DNA of 64,000 nt from Minisyncoccota bacterium (GTDB lineage: Bacteria > Patescibacteriota > Minisyncoccia > Phycocordibacterales > UBA918), in NCBI GenBank assembly GCA_041688155.1, contig JBDNIW010000003.1:95397-159396 (forward strand). The letters run 5' to 3'. Below the pieces are notes generated by a model. The model worked only from the letters and a program-made list of their open reading frames with translations. It did not search any database and had not been told where the DNA came from. The first letter of the stretch is position 1. Each line of letters starts with the position of its first letter. Of this stretch, positions 38,571-55,604 are shown piece by piece. The translations under genes and the position numbers were made by a program.

Positions 38571-40466
38571 CTATACAATCCGCTCGGGGTTCACTTCGAT
38601 TTTTACGTATGGTGGTAATGTCCGTAGGCGGTCTAGGGTGGTGATGTACGATGGTTTGTCTTCAGGGTTCAGTCTGATCAGGCCGTGGCGCATGACTTTG
38701 GTCCCGTTGGAGTGGGGGTGGTTGTAGCACTGGATTTGCTCTGCGCGCAAGGCGTTAGTGATGAGTTCCTCGGTCGCGTTGCTGGAATGAATCGTGCCGG
38801 CCCAGGTGAGGAGGATAAATGTGCACACAGGTGGGTACTGCACCATCTGGCGCAAGGCAATCTCGTCGTCATAAAACCGCTCAATCGCCCCACGGGTGGC
38901 GTACTGCAGGAGGTTGTCCGTCTCGGTGCGGGTTTGGACCAAGACTTCTTGGCTGCTGTGCTCGCGCAGGGTCAGTAGCAGGCGAAACAGCGACTCGTCG
39001 GCGCGCCACGTCGGGATACTGCGGGCGGCGTCGAGCGACACTACTGCACTGACCGCGAGGCCTTGTTGCAGGTACGGCAGGACGACCTGGGTGCCGATCA
39101 GCACGCCAGATTGTTTCTTAAAAAACTCGTTGGTTAGTTTGTGGACGTCTTTAGCGGTTTTGGCGATGGACTGGTCGATGACGGTGACGTCGCTGTCGGG
39201 GTATTCGGCTTTCCATTCGTCTGCCACCTGCTGGATCCCAATCCCGCGCTCACGCAGGCGCCAGGAGCCACACTTGGGGCAGGTGTCAGCGGCTTTGACT
39301 TTGCGCCCAGAGGTGCCAGACACAAACCAGCGTTGCTCTTGTTGGTTATCGTCATAGGTCCGCAGCAGGGAATACGTCGTGCCAGAGTCCGGGCAGCGGA
39401 AGATGTGACTGCAGTCGATACAGGCGACGCAGGGCGCGAGTCCGCGCCGAGCCGCAAAGAGAAACACCCGCCCACGAGCTTCGAGCGCTCGTTCGACTGA
39501 TCGTTTGAGTTCTTTGGAAAACAGCACAAACGGCACGTCTGGTTTGGCTTTGTCTTGTTGGTAGATAATCGACAACGGCGCTGGGAATGCCATTCGTTTG
39601 GCGGGCTCATCGTAGGTGGTGTAGCTATCTTCACGGCGTTTATACTCGTCTTCGGTTGCTGGGACAGTGTCACCAAGGATTATCTGGCGGCCGCAGGCCT
39701 TCCCGAACGCTTTGAGTGCTTCGCGATGGTCAAGGTACGGTCGGGTGCGGGCCACATAGTGTGCACTGCCAGAGTGTTCAACAATAATTGTACTGCAGTC
39801 GGACCGCTCGATGTAGGCGTAGGCTGGGGTGGTAATGATTAGTATAGCGGTTGAGGTGTCTTCAATCGCAGTGTACGCCTTATCGCGGGCTGACTTGGTC
39901 ATCATGGGTGAGAGGGTGATAACGCGATTTTTGATGCCGTTGGACATGTGTTTGGCGCAGTTAGCGACGTAGGCGGCAGTGGGGACTACCAGTAATACGG
40001 AATGTTTCTTGGCAAACTGGCTGCGCACGAGCGTCTGGTACGTCAGGTGTCGTTCGTCGGTCCTGGCGGTTAGGAGTTGCGGTACAGTGTCCTCGTTCAT
40101 TTCGCTCGCGCCACTGTCCGGGTACGGGCGGTTGCCATTGCGCACATCAGGCGGTAGGAGTTGGTAGATTATTGATCCCGTGGTGGCTGGGTATTGGTGA
40201 GTGAGGGCTTCGGCCGCAGCTCGAAAAGACGCCGGGAGGGCCCGAGCACCTGGTTGCTGGGGGAGTTTACGTAGGGAAAACGTCGCGGCTTTGAGCGCTG
40301 TTTTGCTCGCATGGGCTGGCCGTACCGCTGTTACGATAGCCGATTGCGTCTTGCCTCTGATTGGTACTTGCACAAAACTCCCAATCGGGTACGGCAAACT
40401 CGAGAAATACGACAACGACTCCAGCATAGTCCCGCGGATGAGTGGAGTGACGATAATGACGTGCAT
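38571..40466 (-). CDS. priA: primosomal protein N-prime (replication restart helicase PriA)
   Basis: 631 aa; superfamily-2 helicase motifs and Cys4 zinc fingers (CVACIDCSH...CPKCGS). Confidence 0.8.
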   Translation of the reverse strand: MHVIIVTPLIRGTMLESLSYFSSLPYPIGSFVQVPIRGKTQSAIVTAVRPAHASKTALKAATFSLRKLPQQPGARALPASFRAAAEALTHQYPATTGSIIYQLLPPDVRNGNRPYPDSGASEMNEDTVPQLLTARTDERHLTYQTLVRSQFAKKHSVLLVVPTAAYVANCAKHMSNGIKNRVITLSPMMTKSARDKAYTAIEDTSTAILIITTPAYAYIERSDCSTIIVEHSGSAHYVARTRPYLDHREALKAFGKACGRQIILGDTVPATEDEYKRREDSYTTYDEPAKRMAFPAPLSIIYQQDKAKPDVPFVLFSKELKRSVERALEARGRVFLFAARRGLAPCVACIDCSHIFRCPDSGTTYSLLRTYDDNQQEQRWFVSGTSGRKVKAADTCPKCGSWRLRERGIGIQQVADEWKAEYPDSDVTVIDQSIAKTAKDVHKLTNEFFKKQSGVLIGTQVVLPYLQQGLAVSAVVSLDAARSIPTWRADESLFRLLLTLREHSSQEVLVQTRTETDNLLQYATRGAIERFYDDEIALRQMVQYPPVCTFILLTWAGTIHSSNATEELITNALRAEQIQCYNHPHSNGTKVMRHGLIRLNPEDKPSYITTLDRLRTLPPYVKIEVNPERIV

Positions 40467-41095: not shown

Positions 41096-42604
41096 TTAAA
41101 ACTCCTCCAGATAGTCAACTTTTGCTCCCAGGGTGGTTAGGCGCTCAACCAGCTTTTCGTAGCCGCGGTTGATGCTGTAGATGTTGCGCAGGATTGAGGT
41201 GCCGTTGGCGGCGAGCATCCCAATCAGGAGAATGGTGGCAGGGCGCAGCGCCGGTGGGCAGACCAGCTCGGTGGCGGTGAGTTTGGTTGGGCCGGTGATG
41301 TAGATGCGGTGCGGGTCGGCCAATACCGTTTCGCCACCCAGGCGGTCAAGCTCGGTAAAATAGATGGCGCGTTTCTCGTACATCCAGTCGTGGATGAGGG
41401 TTTGGCCGGCCGCCTGGGTGGCGATGACGGCAAAAAACGGCAGGTTATCGGCGTTGATACCAGGGTAGGGCCGGGAGTGGATTTTCTCTAGTGAGGCGGT
41501 GAGTTTGGACGGCATGATGGTGAGGTCGACTAACTTGGTCCGGCCGTTGTGACTGAGGTAGGGTTTGGTTTGTTTGTACTTGAGCCCCATTTTTTGGAGG
41601 ACCAGTAGCTCTAGTTCGAGGAACTCGATGGGGCAGCGTTCGATGGTGATTTTAGAATGAGTAGTTATCGCCGCTGCGATAAAAAACATACTGTCGGTTG
41701 GGTCTTCTGAGAGGGTGTATTCGATTGGTTGGTTGATTTCCTTGATGCCGTGCACGGTGAGGGTGGTGGTGCCGATACCGTCAATCCGTACACCGACGGC
41801 CTCTAGGAACGTGCATAACTCTTGCACCATGTAGTTGGCGCTGCAGTATTTGATAGTGGTCGCCCCGGGTGAAAGGGCGGCGGCGAGGAGGGCATTCTCG
41901 GTTACCGTGTCGCCAGACTCGTAGAGGATGATTTCGGCTGGTTTGCGCGCGGCGTAGGTGATTTTGTAAGCATCTTGCGTCACGTTGATGTCGACACCAA
42001 AATGCTCAAGCGCGTAAAAATGCGGCCGGACGGTCCGGGAGCCGAGTTTGCAACCACCTGACTGGGGCAAGGCAAATTTGTTGAGGTGGTGGATCAGCGG
42101 GCCGATAAACATCACGATGCTGCGGGTGCGCTTGGCCGCGGTTTCATTGATGGCTTTGAGGTCAAACTTTTTGGGTGGGGTGAGGCTGATGGTGCTGCCA
42201 GTCCACTCGATTTTGACCCCGATACTCTCAAGCACTTCGGTCAGGCGGTAGACTTCCTCGATGCGGGGCATCTTGTGGATGGTAGTTTTACCCTTGTTCA
42301 GGAGCGCTGCGCACAGTAGTCCTACGGCGCCGTTTTTACTGGTGTTGGTGACGACCGTGCCAGATAGCTTGTGGCCGCCCTCAATCTGCAGGTTCATGGT
42401 GCCAGGGGAGAGGGTGACGAGGTTTTTGCCCAGCGCCTTACTAATTCTAGCTAGCATTTCGGCTGAGACATTTTGCCGCCCAGACTCCATCCGCGCGACC
42501 GCGCTTTGTGTGCTTTTAATTTTTCCAGCCAAATCAGACTGGGTCAGGCCGGATGATTCACGCAAGTCAGCAATTCGTCCTCCGATGTTCGTTTCAGATT
42601 TCAT
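41096..42604 (-). CDS. murA: XRE-family HTH domain fused to UDP-N-acetylglucosamine 1-carboxyvinyltransferase (MurA)
   Basis: 502 aa; residues 8-60 are a Cro/C1-type HTH (LTQSDLAGKIKSTQSAVARMESG); from MNLQIEGGHKLSGTV onward a full-length MurA including the active Cys (GGCKLGSRTVRPH). Confidence 0.75.
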   Translation of the reverse strand: MKSETNIGGRIADLRESSGLTQSDLAGKIKSTQSAVARMESGRQNVSAEMLARISKALGKNLVTLSPGTMNLQIEGGHKLSGTVVTNTSKNGAVGLLCAALLNKGKTTIHKMPRIEEVYRLTEVLESIGVKIEWTGSTISLTPPKKFDLKAINETAAKRTRSIVMFIGPLIHHLNKFALPQSGGCKLGSRTVRPHFYALEHFGVDINVTQDAYKITYAARKPAEIILYESGDTVTENALLAAALSPGATTIKYCSANYMVQELCTFLEAVGVRIDGIGTTTLTVHGIKEINQPIEYTLSEDPTDSMFFIAAAITTHSKITIERCPIEFLELELLVLQKMGLKYKQTKPYLSHNGRTKLVDLTIMPSKLTASLEKIHSRPYPGINADNLPFFAVIATQAAGQTLIHDWMYEKRAIYFTELDRLGGETVLADPHRIYITGPTKLTATELVCPPALRPATILLIGMLAANGTSILRNIYSINRGYEKLVERLTTLGAKVDYLEEF

Positions 42605-42770
42605 GTGGGTAGTATAGCAGATGCGCTATGTGGGTAGAGGGTTATAAACATTGACAAACATTATTATTTACGTTTAGTTTCTGGGACTGCTTAAAATTTC
42701 AAGCAACTGCCTGGCACCCGAGTGGCTTCTTTTTTTACGTAAACTTGCTACACTGACACCACTTACTTGT

Positions 42771-43790
42771 ATGTCTTTTTTCTCTAACCTTACGCCCAAA
42801 ATCGGCATTGATCTGGGTACCACCAACATTCTGGTATTTGTGCCGGGGCAAGGGATTGTGCTCAACGAACCATCGGTGGTGGCGGTATCAGACGATAATC
42901 GGGTGCTGGCGGTGGGGACTGAGGCTAAACTGATGATTGGCCGGACGCCCGAGAGTATCCGGGCGTATCGGCCCATGCGCGACGGCGTGATTGCGGACTA
43001 CCGCGTGACCGAAGCGATGCTGCGGTACTTTTTGCGCAAATCGATGAGTAAATTTAGTCTGTTCCGGCCGGACGTGATGGTGTCAGTACCAGCCGGGGTC
43101 ACCTCAACCGAGCGTCGCGCCGTGGTTGAAGCCACTATGAAAGCCGGAGCCCGTAACGCGTTTGTGGTCAAGGAACCAATTCTGGCCGCAATTGGGGCTG
43201 GTGTGCCGATTTATGAACCGCAGGGACATATGATCATCGATATCGGTGGTGGCACGATTGACTGTGCGGTGATTAGTCTGGGGGGGATTGTGTCATCCAA
43301 CTCAGTCAAGTGCGCTGGGAACAAAATCGACGCGGCGATTATCGACTACGTCAAAAAGTCGCGGAACCTCGCTATCGGTGAGAAAACCGCTGAGGAAATC
43401 AAAATCGGCGTCGGGTCCGCGTTACCGCTTGAGGAGGAATTGTCGATGGAGATCAACGGGCGCGATATGATTAGTGGCTTGCCGCGGAGGGTGACTATTA
43501 CGAGTAACGAGGTGGTCAAAGCCATCAGCAAGGAATTAAAAGAAATGATTGCTGCCATCAAAACCGTGTTTCAAGAAACTCCACCCGAGCTGTCGTCCGA
43601 CATCATCGACGGTGGCATCATCATGACAGGTGGCACCAGCCAGCTGCGTAATTTTCCTGAGTTGATCCGCAGGCGCACCGGGGTAAAAGCCGCCGTGGCC
43701 GACCAAGCGTTGTTCTGCGTCGCCAAGGGCACCGGGATTGCGCTGGAGCACCTGGACGTCTACAAACGAGCGGTGTTGGCCAAGAAGTAG
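42771..43790 (+). CDS. MreB-like actin homolog (paralog 1)
   Basis: IGIDLGTTNILVFVPGQGIVLNEPSVVAV. Confidence 0.8.
   Translation: MSFFSNLTPKIGIDLGTTNILVFVPGQGIVLNEPSVVAVSDDNRVLAVGTEAKLMIGRTPESIRAYRPMRDGVIADYRVTEAMLRYFLRKSMSKFSLFRPDVMVSVPAGVTSTERRAVVEATMKAGARNAFVVKEPILAAIGAGVPIYEPQGHMIIDIGGGTIDCAVISLGGIVSSNSVKCAGNKIDAAIIDYVKKSRNLAIGEKTAEEIKIGVGSALPLEEELSMEINGRDMISGLPRRVTITSNEVVKAISKELKEMIAAIKTVFQETPPELSSDIIDGGIIMTGGTSQLRNFPELIRRRTGVKAAVADQALFCVAKGTGIALEHLDVYKRAVLAKK
43770..43790. repeat. 21-nt direct repeat copy 1 (end of mreB-like gene incl. stop)
   Basis: GCGGTGTTGGCCAAGAAGTAG repeated at 43942-43962, just before a ParE-like TA cassette. Confidence 0.75.
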
Positions 43791-43968: not shown

Positions 43969-44253
43969 TTACACACGCTCTTGCGCTGTATGGTGAATCG
44001 TAATAATTACTACGGTTGGTTGCGGATCGGTGTCATCTACTCGATAGATGATTTGAAATGGACCAATAAAAACTCGCCGATATTGGTCGCGGAATTGCGC
44101 ACCTCGGTTTGGTAGTAGACTCAGAGACTCACACTTGGATTCTATGGCCTCAATCATTTTGACTGCAGCTGTTGGAGAATCTCCAGCGATGTAGTCGCCA
44201 ATCATAGTTAATTGCGATAGAGCGGCGGACGATAGAATTACTCTAGCGCGCAT
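43969..44253 (-). CDS. type II toxin, ParE/RelE family
   Basis: 94 aa; family-like IYRVDDTDPQPTVVIITIHHTAQ. Confidence 0.6.
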   Translation of the reverse strand: MRARVILSSAALSQLTMIGDYIAGDSPTAAVKMIEAIESKCESLSLLPNRGAQFRDQYRRVFIGPFQIIYRVDDTDPQPTVVIITIHHTAQERV

Positions 44254-44443
44254 AGCGCTGTTTCAGGATTGCAAAGGCTTCAGTTGCGTCTATTGCAGAG
44301 TCGTGTAATAGCGACGCTTCACCAGCGGCGATTTTGCGTTCGATAATCATGGCCTCAATCTGAATTGCGAGTTCTTGCTGGTCTGTTTCGGGTAAGTCAG
44401 CAGCGGAGGTGATGATGGCTGTGAGTTGGTGTTTCATGTCCAA
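44243..44443 (-). CDS. antitoxin (addiction-module component, TIGR02574-like)
   Basis: 66 aa, LPETDQQELAIQIEAMIIERK; overlaps the toxin gene by 11 nt. Confidence 0.5.
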   Translation of the reverse strand: MDMKHQLTAIITSAADLPETDQQELAIQIEAMIIERKIAAGEASLLHDSAIDATEAFAILKQRYAR

Positions 44444-44543: not shown

Positions 44544-47288
44544 ATGGAAGGAACACCAAAACAATTTGCCAGTCCCCAAGAAGAGGTGGAGTTTTTGCGG
44601 GCGCAGTTGGCAGCGCGGGAGCGGGTAGTGTTGGCGCGGACGCCAGAGCTCGATCCGGCTGAGCGTGAATCGATGGGTCGACAGGAGCTACAGTCGTACA
44701 CCAGTTTTACCCCCAAACTAATTCTGCATCCTGAATACGAATTATCAGGGCAGGCAATGCATGAAGCCGTGGCGACGGTCGAGACAGCTTCTGACCCAGT
44801 GGAGGAGATTTTGCAGATAGCAAAAGAAAAGGGAATCAAAAACGCCTTATCGGTGCTGGCGAGCACTGCAGATGCTTACACCATTGACGAAGTTCATCGG
44901 CGATTGATTGAGCTGATCACTACCGGCGTCAACATCGCAGATATGAAAGAAGGGGTTCCGCCCTGGCACGTGTTGCACATGACGTTGTTTGAGGTCACGT
45001 TGCCAGCTAGTGCTAGCGATGCGCCGCCAGTCCCGCTAGCGGAGCTGGTCGGCACCATGGAGCAATTGCTCGCTGGGCTGCGGACGATTGGATCGATCAA
45101 AAGTGGTAACCACTTTGTGTTTGAAATTGCAGTCGCAAACAACACCGAAGATATCATTTTTTACGTCGCGGTCCCCAATGAATTCACGTCGTTGTTCGAG
45201 AAGCAAACGTTGTCACTATTCCCGCACGCTGAGTTGACCGTCCAGCCGCAGGACTACAACGTGTACATGGCAGACGGCGTGACCCAAATTGCCGAGCTGT
45301 CACTCAAAAAACACCCCATCTACCCGCTCAAAACCGTCGCTGCGTTTGCGACTGATCCACTTGAAGTCGTTCTCAATGCCTTTTCCAAAATCGGCCGTGC
45401 CGAAGGCGCGGCCGTGCAGTTTGCTATCCGCCACCCTCAGGGCAAGTACCTCAAAACCTACCAAGACATCATCAAGCAAGTAGAAAAAGGTCTCAAACCA
45501 AACGAAGCTATCGCGCGTAGTACCACCGGTGGTGCCATTATGGCGGAGGTTGGTGGACTATTTGCTAGCAAAAAATCAGCCGAGGCGCTCGCCAAACCGC
45601 TTGAGGTCGACACGGTCGCCATCGAACTGTTCCGCCAGAAAACCGCCCGCGAGATTGTTGAAGTGACCATCAGAATTGTGGTGTCAGCGGCGGATGCTGC
45701 CCGCGTGCAGCAAGTTTTGTCCGAGCTGGAGTCGGCCTGGCACCAGTTTGATACGGTTGAAGCCAACCAGTTTGTGTTTACCCGCCTCAAGGGCAACAAC
45801 CTCAAGTTGGCTGAGAAAGCGTTCTCTTTTCGTCAGTTTGACCAGCGGAACATCATACCGCTGGCGCTGGACGAACTCGCCACACTGGCTCATTTCCCAG
45901 CTAGTGGCGTGCAGTCAGCCCATCAGTTCAAGCAGTCATACTCACAGACTGTGCCAGCGCCATCAAACATGCCAGACAGTGGGACGCTATTGGGGATCAA
46001 TCGTCACCGCAACGTTGAGAAAGACGTATTCATCAGCGCTGAAGACCGACTGCGGCATTTCTACATCATCGGGCAAACCGGAACCGGTAAGACGACCCTG
46101 ATGAAAAACATGATTGTGCAAGACATCCAGCGTGGGGACGGGGTATGTATGATTGACCCGCACGGGACGGACATCGAGGATGTACTCGGGGCTGTTCCAC
46201 CCGAGCGAGCAGATGATGTGATTTATTTTGATCCGTCGAACCTTGACCACGTGGTGGGGCTCAATATGCTCGAGTATGACTACAGCAAACCCGAGCAAAA
46301 AACCTTTGTCGTCAACGAGTTGTTTTCCATCTTCCAAAAGCTATACGGAGCTAACCCAGAATCCATGGGGCCGATGTTTGAGCAGTATTTCCGCAACGCC
46401 ACCATGCTGGTGATGGAAGACCCAGACAGTGGTAACACCCTGATGGACATAGGTCGGGTACTGTCCGATGCTGCCTACCGCCGGCAGAAACTAGCCAAAG
46501 CGACCAATCCTGTCGTCATTCAGTTTTGGAAAGAGATCGCGGGCAAAGCCGGTGGGGACGCTGCGCTTGAAAACATTGTGCCGTACATCGTCTCCAAATT
46601 CGACGTGTTCACCGCCAACGACTACATGCGACCAATTATCGGCCAGCAGCACAGCGCGTTTGATTTCAGGCAAGTCATGGATCAGAAAAAAATCCTCCTG
46701 GTGAACCTGTCCAAGGGTCGCCTGGGGGAGATTAATGCCAACCTGATTGGGATGATTATCGTGGGCAAACTCCTGATGGCGGCGCTGTCACGGGTTGATG
46801 ATCCTACCAAATCATTCCCACCGTTCTACCTGCACATGGATGAGTTCCAGAACATCTCCACCAACTCTATCTCGGCGATACTGTCCGAGGCGCGCAAGTA
46901 CAAACTCGGTCTGACGATGGCGCACCAGTTCATCGCGCAGCTGCAGCCTGATATCAAAGATGCAGTGTTTGGCAACGTTGGGTCGATGGCGGCGTTCCGG
47001 GTCGGTCCGGAAGACGCGCAGTACCTGGAGCAGCAATACGCGCCGACCATCACCGCAACTGATCTGATGAACGTCCCTAACCGTAACGCATTTCTGCGCG
47101 TGCTCGCCAACGGTACCCCGACGCCACCGTTTAGTATCGGCACACTGGCACCGGCTGAGCCCGATCTGGCCCGAGTCCAGCACATGATCGCCATGAGTGC
47201 GCAAAGATACGGTACACCCCGAGCGCAAATCGAAGCGGACATCGCCGCTCGTTATCATAAACCACCCCGACCAACCATCACGTTATAG
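44544..47288 (+). CDS. VirD4/TraD/TraG-like coupling-protein P-loop ATPase with ~430-aa N-terminal domain of unknown function and no TM anchor
   Basis: 914 aa; Walker A GQTGTGKTT, CMIDPHGTD, Walker B/DEF region FYLHMDEFQN, and RKYKLGLTMAHQFIAQL typical of T4CP/FtsK-like ATPases; the N-terminus is hydrophilic. Confidence 0.65.
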   Translation: MEGTPKQFASPQEEVEFLRAQLAARERVVLARTPELDPAERESMGRQELQSYTSFTPKLILHPEYELSGQAMHEAVATVETASDPVEEILQIAKEKGIKNALSVLASTADAYTIDEVHRRLIELITTGVNIADMKEGVPPWHVLHMTLFEVTLPASASDAPPVPLAELVGTMEQLLAGLRTIGSIKSGNHFVFEIAVANNTEDIIFYVAVPNEFTSLFEKQTLSLFPHAELTVQPQDYNVYMADGVTQIAELSLKKHPIYPLKTVAAFATDPLEVVLNAFSKIGRAEGAAVQFAIRHPQGKYLKTYQDIIKQVEKGLKPNEAIARSTTGGAIMAEVGGLFASKKSAEALAKPLEVDTVAIELFRQKTAREIVEVTIRIVVSAADAARVQQVLSELESAWHQFDTVEANQFVFTRLKGNNLKLAEKAFSFRQFDQRNIIPLALDELATLAHFPASGVQSAHQFKQSYSQTVPAPSNMPDSGTLLGINRHRNVEKDVFISAEDRLRHFYIIGQTGTGKTTLMKNMIVQDIQRGDGVCMIDPHGTDIEDVLGAVPPERADDVIYFDPSNLDHVVGLNMLEYDYSKPEQKTFVVNELFSIFQKLYGANPESMGPMFEQYFRNATMLVMEDPDSGNTLMDIGRVLSDAAYRRQKLAKATNPVVIQFWKEIAGKAGGDAALENIVPYIVSKFDVFTANDYMRPIIGQQHSAFDFRQVMDQKKILLVNLSKGRLGEINANLIGMIIVGKLLMAALSRVDDPTKSFPPFYLHMDEFQNISTNSISAILSEARKYKLGLTMAHQFIAQLQPDIKDAVFGNVGSMAAFRVGPEDAQYLEQQYAPTITATDLMNVPNRNAFLRVLANGTPTPPFSIGTLAPAEPDLARVQHMIAMSAQRYGTPRAQIEADIAARYHKPPRPTITL

Positions 47289-54530: not shown

Positions 54531-55604
54531 ATGAAAAAAATGTCGCACTATATCAATCGTCTGCTTGCTACTGTGTCTACTGATGTGGCGATTGATCTAG
54601 GGACGGCTAACACGTTGGTGTACGTCAAAGGGAAGGGGATAGTGCTCAACGAACCAACTATTGTAGCCATCAACAAGAAAACTGGGCAGCTCGTGGCGGT
54701 TGGTAATGAGGCCAAAATGATGCAGGGCCGCACGCCACAACACATCGAGGTGATCAGGCCGCTTGTTGATGGAGTAATTTCTGACTTTGAAGTGGCCGAA
54801 GAGATGTTGTCGTACCTCATAAACAAAATCCGCAGCGACATGCGGTCGTTGATTGCACCGCGGATGCTGATTGGGGTGCCGTCTGGAATCACCAACGTAG
54901 AAATGCGGGCTGCCCAAGACGCCGCCAAAAATGCTGGAGCCAGAGAAGTGTTTCTGATTGAAGAGCCAGTTGCAGCCGCCATTGGCGCTAAACTGCCCAT
55001 CCATAAAGCCATCGGCAGCATGATTATTGACATTGGCGGCGGTACCACTGACATCGCGGTGTTGTCACTCAATGGCCTAGTGGTGTCACGGAACCTGCGT
55101 GTGGCGGGTGACCACCTCAACACTGCGATTATGGTATATATGAGGGACCAGTTCAAAATTCAAGTGGGGGAGAAAACTGCTGAGGATGCCAAAGTTGCTC
55201 TGGCGTCAATTGCGCACTCAGACGGTGGTAAAGAAATGGTAGCTCGCGGACGAGATGTGGTGACGGGATTGCCGCGCGAGGTGGTCATTACTGACGCTGA
55301 CGTGCGTGACGCGGTGGCGTCCAAACTAGAAACTATCGTTGACGCCGTGCGCGGTGTGCTCGAAGAAACGCCACCGGAAGTGATGGCTGATATCATGCAG
55401 CGAGGTATCCACTTGGCCGGTGGTGGAGCCTTGATACCAGGGCTTGCGTCATTGCTTGAGCACGCACTCGAGGTACCAGTTATTGTCGTGCCAGACCCTC
55501 TGCGCGCCGTAATTCGCGGGGCTGGGATAGTGGTTGAGGATCTGGAGTTATATAAAGATTTGTTAATTGATCATGCTGATACGTTCGCGCCGCATCTCGG
55601 ATAA
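54531..55604 (+). CDS. mreB: rod shape-determining protein MreB
   Basis: VAIDLGTANTLVYVKGKGIVLNEPTIVAI; followed by mreC, mreD, mrdA. Confidence 0.9.
   Translation: MKKMSHYINRLLATVSTDVAIDLGTANTLVYVKGKGIVLNEPTIVAINKKTGQLVAVGNEAKMMQGRTPQHIEVIRPLVDGVISDFEVAEEMLSYLINKIRSDMRSLIAPRMLIGVPSGITNVEMRAAQDAAKNAGAREVFLIEEPVAAAIGAKLPIHKAIGSMIIDIGGGTTDIAVLSLNGLVVSRNLRVAGDHLNTAIMVYMRDQFKIQVGEKTAEDAKVALASIAHSDGGKEMVARGRDVVTGLPREVVITDADVRDAVASKLETIVDAVRGVLEETPPEVMADIMQRGIHLAGGGALIPGLASLLEHALEVPVIVVPDPLRAVIRGAGIVVEDLELYKDLLIDHADTFAPHLG

What the first reader, a model, noticed from the sequence alone, without database searches (positions are those of the whole stretch)
41096..42604. MurA fused in-frame to an N-terminal XRE-type HTH DNA-binding domain
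A single 502-aa ORF. Residues ~8-60 are a canonical Cro/C1 HTH. After a 6-residue linker, a complete MurA follows, including the catalytic-Cys loop. This would link a DNA-binding module to the first committed peptidoglycan enzyme, possibly for autoregulation or localisation. It could also be a recent fusion by loss of a stop codon.
Basis: seen in the sequence. Interest (0 to 1): 0.55.

Follow-up and report, generated by a model that had tools for sequence, protein, structure and literature searches.

The report
Self-regulating MurA enzyme with DNA-binding head
The first enzyme of bacterial cell-wall synthesis (MurA) is here permanently fused to a DNA-binding domain, and a conserved palindrome sits on the gene's own promoter in hundreds of ultra-small (Patescibacteria/CPR) bacteria, so the enzyme most likely represses its own gene, something I found described in no paper.

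Summary
A 502-aa ORF on the minus strand (41096-42604) carries an XRE/Cro-C1 HTH (aa 7-65), a short linker and a complete MurA (aa 71-498) that keeps the catalytic residues.

It is not an assembly error or a recent stop-codon loss. The identical protein lies on 14 independent contigs. At least 591 species genomes encode the HTH joined in frame to the MurA N-terminus, and all 80 loci retrieved encode the full-length fusion. These are nearly all Patescibacteria, plus two cultured Knoellia (Actinobacteria).

New here: a 16-bp palindrome (window ATAGCGCATCTGCTAT, 42614-42629) lies 9-13 nt before the ATG and overlaps the -10 box of a near-leaderless promoter. A site occurs in the 30 nt before the ATG in 50 of 76 orthologous loci, 113-fold above background. 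Both arms switch together (ATAGC..GCTAT versus ATATC..GATAT), in step with recognition-helix residue 32 (Thr versus Ser).

Best reading: a bifunctional "trigger enzyme" of the BirA/NadR/PutA kind, meaning an active MurA that represses its own promoter as a dimer. Ligand control of DNA binding is inferred only. A degenerate, Cys-less branch of the family sits beside mur operons and keeps the operator.

The architecture is already in databases. I found no paper on it.

The parts
41096..42604 (-). HTH-MurA fusion gene (502 aa, stop codon included)
   Evidence: ORF list and sequence; both Pfam domains lie in one frame; the identical protein is on 14 contigs.
42410..42586 (-). XRE/Cro-C1 helix-turn-helix domain, aa 7-65 (five helices)
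   Evidence: Pfam HTH_3 at aa 11-63, E 8e-13. The AF2 model has helices 7-17, 22-28, 33-41, 48-58 and 62-65. 17 of 55 columns are at least 90% conserved over 82 orthologues, the same density as in the enzyme part.
42482..42511 (-). Recognition helix and the residue before it, aa 32-41 (T-QSAVARME); Q33, S34, A35, R38 and E40 are invariant
   Evidence: Conservation table. Residue 32 is Thr in the loci with ATAGC..GCTAT operators and Ser in those with ATATC..GATAT operators, with one hybrid-site exception, L017.
42395..42415 (-). Short linker, aa 64-70 (TLSPGTM), of nearly fixed length across the family
   Evidence: Alignment of 82 orthologues; pLDDT below 50 at aa 64-67.
41111..42394 (-). MurA (UDP-GlcNAc 1-carboxyvinyltransferase) body, aa 71-498
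   Evidence: NF006873 scores 312.9 bits, above its cutoff; matches to solved MurA structures. The residues equivalent to E. coli K22, N23, R91, C115, R120, D305, R331, R371 and R397 are present and invariant in 46 relatives. The E. coli reference sequence was verified as identical to 1uae_A.
42050..42052 (-). Codon of catalytic Cys185 (equivalent to E. coli Cys115)
   Evidence: Read from the sequence; alignments.
42614..42629 (.). 16-bp palindromic operator candidate (minus strand ATAGCGCATCTGCTAT), 9 nt upstream of the ATG
   Evidence: It is the only match with at most 1 mismatch in the 64-kb window. It is conserved at the same position in orthologous loci, with 113-fold enrichment.
42611..42616 (-). 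-10-like hexamer TATACT; its first three bases are the last three bases of the palindrome, and it ends 6 nt before the ATG (leaderless or near-leaderless mRNA)
   Evidence: The same register is found in 49 of 50 loci. The -10 hexamer matches at least 5 of 6 consensus bases in 35 of 50. The distance from the -10 to the ATG is 6-10 nt in 40 of 50.
42771..43790 (+). Divergently transcribed mreB (context; shares the 166-nt control region in this clade)
   Evidence: Pfam MreB_Mbl, E 1e-130. The divergent mreB/HTH-murA arrangement is kept in most of the closer relatives whose contigs reach upstream (about 60-77% identity). No operator copy lies nearer to mreB.

Best explanation
The gene encodes a bifunctional 'trigger enzyme': a catalytically competent MurA whose N-terminal XRE-type HTH binds, as a dimer, a 16-bp palindrome that overlaps the -10 box of its own near-leaderless promoter. 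Binding would block RNA polymerase, so the amount of the first committed peptidoglycan enzyme feeds back on its own transcription.

Shown by sequence and comparative evidence: the fusion, the catalytic residues, the conserved operator and its position, and the co-variation of helix and operator.

Inferred: repression rather than activation, dimer formation through the MurA body or the HTH, and modulation of DNA binding by the enzyme's ligand state (open/closed; UDP-GlcNAc, PEP or UDP-MurNAc).
For: 1. The fusion is real and old. The identical protein lies on 14 contigs. At least 591 species genomes carry the in-frame junction, and all 80 retrieved loci are full-length fusions at 51-77% identity. 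Fused relatives reach down to 31% identity.

2. The HTH is under the same constraint as the enzyme. 31% of HTH columns and 29% of MurA columns are at least 90% conserved, and the recognition helix residues Q33, S34, A35, R38 and E40 are invariant.

3. The enzyme residues are intact and invariant. No second murA lies in the 64 kb.

4. A palindrome of the form ATA(G/T)C-N6-G(C/A)TAT lies within the 30 nt before the ATG in 50 of 76 loci. Its rate there is 2.2e-2 per position against 2.0e-4 elsewhere in the same loci. About 14 more loci have it 47-265 nt upstream.

5. It overlaps the -10 hexamer in a fixed register, and the -10 ends 6-10 nt before the ATG.

6. Both arms change together (ATAGC..GCTAT versus ATATC..GATAT), as expected for a symmetric dimer. 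The change tracks residue 32: Thr in 14 of 15 ATAGC-type loci, with L017 a hybrid, and Ser in the ATATC-type loci. L020 (Ser/ATATC) is nested inside the Thr clade in a tree built from the MurA part alone.

7. Independent stand-alone XRE genes with an almost identical recognition helix (for example L139, GTTQSAIARFESG) have the identical palindrome at their own starts.

8. A degenerate branch that has lost the Cys loop keeps the HTH and the operator and sits divergently beside mur operons.

9. XRE regulators are generally autoregulatory dimers that bind palindromes (PMC12565409). Enzyme-repressor fusions such as BirA, NadR, PutA and RbkR are an established kind (PMC5397151).
Against: There is no experimental DNA-binding or activity data.

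Within the window, one operator match is what chance gives (expected 1.0), so the case rests on conservation across loci.

The Thr/Ser-G/T co-variation amounts to one or two evolutionary events on a neighbour-joining tree, so it is weak statistically.

About 15 of 82 loci show no site at the threshold used.

The palindrome is AT-rich and contains part of the -10 box, so some of its conservation could be promoter conservation.

MurA enzymes are, to my knowledge, usually monomers. The AF2 model does not fix the HTH relative to the enzyme body (linker pLDDT below 50), so the dimerisation route is unknown.

The E. coli Asp369 equivalent is Ala (PPALRP) in this whole subfamily, and the murA equivalog model is below its cutoff, so full MurA activity is likely but not proven.
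Confidence: 0.72

Rival explanations
1. The protein is mainly or only a transcription factor. The MurA-like body serves as a ligand sensor (UDP-GlcNAc, PEP or UDP-MurNAc) and catalysis is done by another MurA elsewhere in the genome.
For: A branch of the family has done this. P0132 and P0274 have lost the Cys loop, R91, R120 and R371. They sit next to a mur cluster that contains a separate unfused EPSP_synthase-family gene with a Cys loop. The murA equivalog model TIGR01072 is below its cutoff for the window protein. The Asp369 equivalent is Ala.
Against: In the window protein and 46 relatives every other catalytic or substrate-binding residue checked is invariant. The enzyme part is 52-78% identical across classes of Patescibacteria, which is typical of a housekeeping enzyme. 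No other murA lies in the 64 kb. The NF006873 MurA subfamily model is above its cutoff.
Confidence: 0.1
2. The HTH does not read the palindrome. The palindrome is a promoter feature or the site of another factor, and the HTH serves non-specific nucleoid tethering, localisation or protein-protein contacts.
For: The motif is AT-rich and overlaps the -10 box. The exact 16-mer also occurs in unrelated contexts in metagenomes, including a repeat element. The linker is predicted with low confidence.
Against: The motif is not a general promoter element. It is 113-fold enriched at this one promoter and near-absent elsewhere in 445 kb of flanking sequence. It occurs once in the 64-kb window. Both arms switch symmetrically together with recognition-helix residue 32. 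Unrelated stand-alone XRE proteins with the same helix have the same site. The DNA-reading residues are invariant.
Confidence: 0.1
3. Artefact: a sequencing or assembly error, or a very recent loss of a stop codon, joined a separate HTH gene to murA.
For: None found.
Against: The identical 502-aa protein lies on 14 contigs from different samples and assemblers. At least 591 species genomes have the in-frame junction. All 80 retrieved loci are full-length single ORFs. The linker length is conserved.
Confidence: 0.01
4. Two products from one gene: an internal start at Met70 yields free MurA in addition to the fused form.
For: In the window, codon 70 is ATG, exactly where canonical MurA proteins begin.
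Against: Across 82 orthologues this codon is ATG in 13 and GTG in 7; otherwise it is GTT, GTC, ATC and similar. The position is conserved as a hydrophobic residue, not as a start codon. No Shine-Dalgarno-like sequence precedes it (by eye).
Confidence: 0.05

Closest known systems
NadR (trifunctional NAD regulator/enzyme of Enterobacteria)
   Same: An N-terminal HTH is fused to biosynthetic enzyme domains and represses genes of its own pathway (PMC5397151). From my own knowledge, its HTH is also annotated as Cro/C1-type.
   Different: The enzyme folds and the pathway differ (NMN adenylyltransferase and ribosylnicotinamide kinase; NAD). NadR controls several operons. Here only the gene's own promoter is seen to carry the site, and the pathway is peptidoglycan.
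BirA (biotin protein ligase / bio repressor)
   Same: An enzyme with an N-terminal DNA-binding domain binds a palindromic operator at the promoter as a dimer. Dimerisation is driven by the enzyme's own reaction intermediate, which is the model for the ligand coupling proposed here (PMC5397151; mechanism from established knowledge).
   Different: BirA has a winged HTH rather than an XRE HTH, and the enzyme fold is unrelated. Ligand-dependent dimerisation is demonstrated for BirA and only inferred here.
PutA and archaeal RbkR (other trigger enzymes)
   Same: A DNA-binding domain is fused to an active metabolic enzyme that doubles as the sensor (PMC5397151).
   Different: Those authors state that all such proteins act in vitamin/cofactor or amino-acid metabolism. 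A cell-wall enzyme is not on that list.
Canonical MurA (E. coli 1uae, E. cloacae 1naw and others)
   Same: Same fold and catalytic set: K22, N23, R91, C115, R120, D305, R331, R371 and R397.
   Different: About 25% identity to E. coli MurA. This protein has an extra N-terminal HTH, an insertion around aa 349-366, and Ala in place of Asp369. Known MurA control is post-translational (for example ClpCP proteolysis in Firmicutes, from my own knowledge), not by a fused DNA-binding domain.
Autoregulatory XRE/antitoxin-type HTH proteins (434 repressor/Cro class)
   Same: A five-helix HTH_3 fold and a recognition helix beginning T-(T/S)-Q-S. The palindrome arms are centred about 11 bp apart and overlap the protein's own promoter (PMC12565409).
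   Different: Those are small proteins or carry peptidase or oligomerisation domains; none is joined to MurA.

Membership tests
MurA (UDP-N-acetylglucosamine 1-carboxyvinyltransferase) | EPSP-synthase/MurA fold over the full length | tested here: met
   PF00275 at aa 75-489 covers profile positions 2-417 of 417. Solved MurA chains match aa 61-501. The AF2 model has pLDDT 85 and pTM 0.82.
MurA (UDP-N-acetylglucosamine 1-carboxyvinyltransferase) | Curated family score cutoffs | tested here: inconclusive
   The subfamily model NF006873 scores 312.9 against a cutoff of 297 (passes). The equivalog models do not pass: TIGR01072 scores 300.6 against 392.7, and NF009470 scores 210 against 552.
MurA (UDP-N-acetylglucosamine 1-carboxyvinyltransferase) | Catalytic loop Cys115 with Arg120, plus Lys22, Asn23, Arg91, Asp305, Arg331, Arg371 and Arg397 (E. 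coli numbering) | tested here: met
   The equivalents are C185, R190, K90, N91, R161, D386, R412, R454 and R480, all invariant in 46 relatives. The reference sequence was verified as identical to 1uae_A.
MurA (UDP-N-acetylglucosamine 1-carboxyvinyltransferase) | Asp369 of the D-L-R motif | tested here: not met
   The window has A452-L453-R454 (PPALRP), as do all fused relatives that keep this motif and the closest unfused relatives. The functional weight of this residue was not established here.
MurA (UDP-N-acetylglucosamine 1-carboxyvinyltransferase) | Enolpyruvyl transfer from PEP to UDP-GlcNAc | not testable with these tools
   Needs an enzyme assay or complementation.
XRE / Cro-C1 HTH transcription regulators (PF01381) | HTH_3 domain above the curated cutoff, five-helix fold | tested here: met
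   48.7 bits against a cutoff of 23; five helices in the AF2 model.
XRE / Cro-C1 HTH transcription regulators (PF01381) | Palindromic site in the protein's own promoter (autoregulation) | tested here: met
   A conserved 16-bp palindrome overlaps the -10 box in 50 of 76 loci in the proximal window, and in about 64 of 76 within 270 nt.
XRE / Cro-C1 HTH transcription regulators (PF01381) | Sequence-specific DNA binding as a dimer | not testable with these tools
   Support is indirect only: symmetric arm changes and co-variation with helix residue 32.
Trigger enzymes with a fused DNA-binding domain (BirA/NadR/PutA/RbkR kind) | One polypeptide with a DNA-binding domain and a catalytically competent enzyme | tested here: met
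   Met at the sequence level only.
Trigger enzymes with a fused DNA-binding domain (BirA/NadR/PutA/RbkR kind) | Operator at genes of the same pathway | tested here: met
   The site is at the gene's own promoter. In the degenerate branch the site lies in the intergenic region shared with a murD...murB cluster. No further sites occur in the 64-kb window.
Trigger enzymes with a fused DNA-binding domain (BirA/NadR/PutA/RbkR kind) | DNA binding controlled by the enzyme's substrate, product or intermediate | not testable with these tools
   Inferred from the known open/closed transition of MurA. No data were obtained here.

The most novel reading that the evidence does not exclude
HTH-MurA is the sole MurA of most Patescibacteria and works as a metabolite-gated repressor. 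The ligand state of the enzyme (UDP-GlcNAc, PEP or UDP-MurNAc; open versus closed) sets how well the HTH pair binds the operator on a leaderless promoter. This would give these minimal genomes a one-protein homeostat for the committed step of cell-wall synthesis. In one branch the enzyme half decayed into a pure sensor that controls a whole mur operon. This would be the first trigger enzyme in peptidoglycan synthesis, and a superphylum-wide regulatory device in organisms with very few transcription factors.
Probability: 0.35. Interest if true: 0.78.

Novelty: new member of a known kind. Interest (0 to 1): 0.6.

Why it matters
MurA is the committed step of peptidoglycan synthesis and the target of fosfomycin. 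How its level is set is known only for a few model bacteria, where control is post-translational.

Here a fused DNA-binding domain, with a conserved operator on the gene's own promoter, is found across at least 591 species genomes, nearly all Patescibacteria. These organisms have tiny genomes and few regulators, and most are uncultured.

This gives a concrete, cheaply testable regulatory circuit with a defined protein, a defined 16-bp site and candidate ligands. It offers a natural specificity pair (Thr/Ser at residue 32 with G/T in the site). Cultured carriers exist (Knoellia type strains; the fusion also occurs in a Nanosynbacter metagenome-assembled genome). A degenerate branch shows an enzyme turning into a sensor-regulator.

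It also extends the list of trigger enzymes, so far confined to cofactor and amino-acid metabolism according to PMC5397151, to cell-wall synthesis.

Tried and rejected
1. Assembly artefact or recent stop-codon loss: rejected.

2. A conserved internal start at Met70 giving free MurA: rejected. The codon is ATG in 13 and GTG in 7 of 82 orthologues.

3. More operator copies in the window (a regulon): none. One site at up to 1 mismatch, and 19 sites at up to 2 mismatches against 19.1 expected by chance.

4. A metagenome-wide scan for the exact 16-mer ATAGCATATATGCTAT, meant to find regulon members, was uninformative for that purpose. About 50 belong to an unrelated repeat element and about 9 to another repeat family. 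It did reveal stand-alone XRE genes with the same helix and the same site.

5. AF2 monomer model: it did not define how the HTH sits on the enzyme (linker pLDDT below 50). A dimer or a DNA complex could not be modelled with these tools.

6. A second murA in the genome could be checked only within the 64 kb (none).

7. Literature: seven full-text searches found no paper on an HTH-MurA fusion. The hits that looked promising (PMC8066302; the Lipocone preprint) are unrelated.

8. The window-specific direct repeat CTACCCACAT x2 around the operator is not conserved in the other loci inspected, so it is treated as incidental.
Full report
**Observation.**

The window holds a single 502-aa ORF on the minus strand, 41096-42604, with an ATG start and a TAA stop.

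- Pfam places an HTH_3 (XRE/Cro-C1) domain at aa 11-63 (E 8e-13) and the EPSP-synthase/MurA fold at aa 75-489, covering the whole profile.
- NCBIfam's MurA subfamily model passes its curated cutoff (312.9 against 297). The stricter murA equivalog model does not (300.6 against 392.7).
- All strong matches among solved structures are MurA enzymes (best 5ujs, E 1.8e-53).
The protein keeps K22/N23 (K90/N91), R91 (R161), the catalytic C115 (C185 in GGCKLG), R120 (R190), D305 (D386), R331 (R412), R371 (R454) and R397 (R480).
- All of these are invariant in 46 relatives.
- One difference stands out: E. coli D369 is Ala here (PPALRP), as in the whole subfamily.

**Is the fusion real?**

- The identical 502-aa protein is encoded on 14 independent contigs from different samples and assemblers, including JGI 3300027832, JGI 3300007519 and Logan SRR5468155.
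- All 120 best relatives (74-91% identity) but one N-terminally truncated entry carry both Pfam domains and are about 489-540 aa long. Where named, they come from Kaiserbacteria, Parcubacteria, Nomurabacteria or Paceibacterota.
It found at least 591 genomes in which the HTH and the MurA N-terminus lie in one frame.
- All 80 retrieved loci encode a full-length fusion at 51-77% identity.
- The carriers span Paceibacteria, Kaiser-, Lipton-, Taylor-, Doudna-, Uhr-, Zambryski- and Nomurabacteria, and Saccharibacteria including Nanosynbacter. Two cultured Actinobacteria also carry it: Knoellia subterranea KCTC 19937 and K. sinensis KCTC 19936.
- A search without a word index found fused relatives down to 31% identity, and also some close unfused ones, for example P0122 at 59%.

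An assembly error or a recent stop-codon loss is excluded.

**Constraint on the HTH.**

- Over 82 orthologues, 17 of 55 HTH columns and 126 of 428 MurA columns are at least 90% conserved. That is 31% against 29%.
- R15, Q33, S34, A35, R38, E40, G42, Q44 and N45 are invariant. These lie in the recognition helix and the turn after it.
- The linker is short and of almost fixed length.
- AlphaFold2 gives a five-helix HTH and a confident MurA body (pLDDT 85, pTM 0.82). Confidence is low in the linker, so the relative orientation of the two parts is undefined.

**The operator.**

I aligned the regions upstream of the start codons. A 16-bp palindrome appears in otherwise unalignable intergenic DNA.

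- In the window the minus strand reads ...cacATAGCGCATCTGCTATACTacccacATG. The palindrome is at 42614-42629.
- In the Kaiserbacteria-like clade the consensus is ATAGCATATATGCTAT.
- A site matching at least 9 of the 10 specified positions of ATA(G/T)C-N6-G(C/A)TAT lies in the 30 nt before the ATG in 50 of 76 non-redundant loci.
- The rate there is 2.2e-2 per position, against 2.0e-4 in the remaining 445 kb of the same loci. That is 113-fold enrichment.
- About 14 further loci have the site 47-265 nt upstream.
- In 49 of 50 loci the last three bases of the palindrome (TAT) are the first three bases of a -10 hexamer TATAnT.
- That hexamer ends 6-10 nt before the ATG in 40 of 50 loci. The mRNA should therefore be leaderless or nearly so, and a protein bound to the palindrome would occlude the -10 box.
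- The window contains this site once at up to 1 mismatch. At 2 mismatches it contains only the number expected by chance, 19 against 19.1.

Within these 64 kb the only target is therefore the gene's own promoter.

**Does this HTH read this site?**

Two lines of evidence link the helix to the site.

- **Symmetric co-variation.** The two arms change together. They read ATAGC..GCTAT in the clade that includes the window, and ATATC..GATAT elsewhere. This symmetry is what a dimer imposes.
  - The change tracks the residue before the invariant QSA of the recognition helix. It is Thr32 in the ATAGC-type loci and Ser in the ATATC-type loci. L017 (Thr) has a hybrid site.
  - L020 (Ser/ATATC) is nested inside the Thr clade, in a neighbour-joining tree built from the MurA part alone.
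  - This amounts to one or two evolutionary events only, so it is supportive rather than conclusive.
- **Stand-alone XRE genes.** A metagenome scan for the exact 16-mer was uninformative about a regulon. It did turn up about ten stand-alone XRE genes of 90-106 aa that start right at the same palindrome.
  - Their recognition helices are nearly identical to the fusion's. For example, L139 has GTTQSAIARFESG, against TTQSAIARIESG in the fusion family.

XRE regulators are typically autoregulatory dimers that bind palindromes (PMC12565409).

**A degenerate branch.**

- Some distant fused relatives have lost the Cys loop, R91, R120 and R371. These include P0132, P0133, P0143, P0145, P0151, P0226 and P0230.
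- They keep the HTH better than the enzyme part: 40-62% identity against 28-40%.
- For two members of the branch whose contigs could be read (P0274 on L207, P0132 on L208), the gene lies divergently beside a peptidoglycan-precursor cluster. On L207 this is murD, two further Mur ligases, an unfused EPSP_synthase-family gene with a Cys loop, and murB. On L208 the part visible on the short contig holds a Mur ligase and the unfused EPSP_synthase-family gene. In both, another Mur ligase follows the fused gene.
- Both have ATATCATACATGATAT or ATATCATATATGATAT directly before the ATG.

This shows that the DNA-binding function is selected on its own. It also ties the family to the control of mur genes.

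**Mechanism proposed.**

- Shown: the fusion, the intact catalytic set, the conserved operator overlapping the -10 box, and its link to the recognition helix.
- Inferred: the protein binds as a dimer and represses its own leaderless promoter, so MurA abundance is self-limiting.
- Further inferred, from the well-known open/closed transition of MurA on UDP-GlcNAc binding and its tight binding of UDP-MurNAc (my own knowledge, not tested here): ligand state may alter dimer geometry and hence repression, as biotinoyl-AMP does for BirA.
- In the window's clade the promoter region is shared with a divergent mreB. No extra site lies near mreB, so co-regulation is only a possibility.

**Comparison and novelty.**

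- In kind, this is a trigger enzyme with a fused DNA-binding domain, like BirA, NadR, PutA and RbkR (PMC5397151). NadR is the nearest by architecture.
- It is a member of the XRE HTH family and, by sequence, of the MurA family. The Asp369 position is not conserved, and the equivalog score is below its cutoff.
- The architecture is present in public databases under automatic names such as 'UDP-N-acetylglucosamine 1-carboxyvinyltransferase' or 'helix-turn-helix domain-containing protein'.
- Seven full-text searches found no paper describing it, its operator or its distribution.
- I rate it a new member of a known kind, of moderate-to-high interest. It is widespread, unexplored and directly testable.

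Noticed in passing
L207 10001-11518 and L208 3498-5003 (not in the window): A degenerate HTH-'MurA' branch has lost the Cys loop, R91, R120 and R371. It lies divergently beside a mur cluster: on L207 murD, two Mur ligases, an unfused EPSP_synthase-family gene and murB; on L208 a Mur ligase and the unfused EPSP_synthase-family gene. It keeps the ATATC..GATAT palindrome right before its ATG. It looks like an enzyme turned into a dedicated mur-operon regulator.
   Followed up: partly
L054 2980-4515 and L068 (Knoellia subterranea and K. sinensis): Two cultured Actinobacteria carry a full HTH-MurA with an operator-like ATCTCATATCCGATAT 12 nt (L054) before the ATG. In a neighbour-joining tree they nest among Saccharibacteria, which are epibionts of Actinobacteria, suggesting horizontal transfer. 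The neighbouring genes are ordinary chromosomal genes (a FadB-like gene and a methyltransferase).
   Followed up: partly
L139, L155, L149, L160, L152, L174, L175, L189, L196, L118: Stand-alone XRE genes of about 90-106 aa (L118 is longer, about 166 aa) start directly at the identical palindrome ATAGCATATATGCTAT, often after a TTGACA -35 box. Their recognition helices are of the form GT(K/T)QS..R.ESG, which suggests a wider helix-site family from which the MurA-fused HTH may derive.
   Followed up: partly
about 50 metagenome loci, e.g. L089, L102, L106, L127 (samples Ga0056131 and Ga0056132): The same 16-mer is embedded in a highly repeated element (tttttagcgcgcg-site-agcgcgctatatgcc, followed by cgtc/cgtccgtc runs). 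This looks like a mobile or satellite repeat unrelated to murA.
   Followed up: no
window 54531-55604 (+): A second MreB paralogue, 42% identical to the mreB next to murA.
   Followed up: no
window 43969-44443 (-) and 44544-47288 (+): A ParE toxin gene with a 66-aa upstream partner is inserted between mreB and a 914-aa DUF87/TraG-like ATPase. The ATPase-mreB-murA order is kept in a Kaiserbacteria genome that lacks the ParE pair.
   Followed up: no
window 42603-42612 and 42628-42637: The direct repeat ATGTGGGTAG (minus strand CTACCCACAT) flanks the operator, and one copy covers the start codon. It is not conserved in the other loci inspected.
   Followed up: partly
window 38571-40466 (-): A 631-aa ORF downstream of murA has no Pfam hit at E <= 0.001, yet it is syntenic (murA, this ORF, def, fmt) in relatives. 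By eye it has PriA-like Cys-x2-Cys pairs.
   Followed up: no
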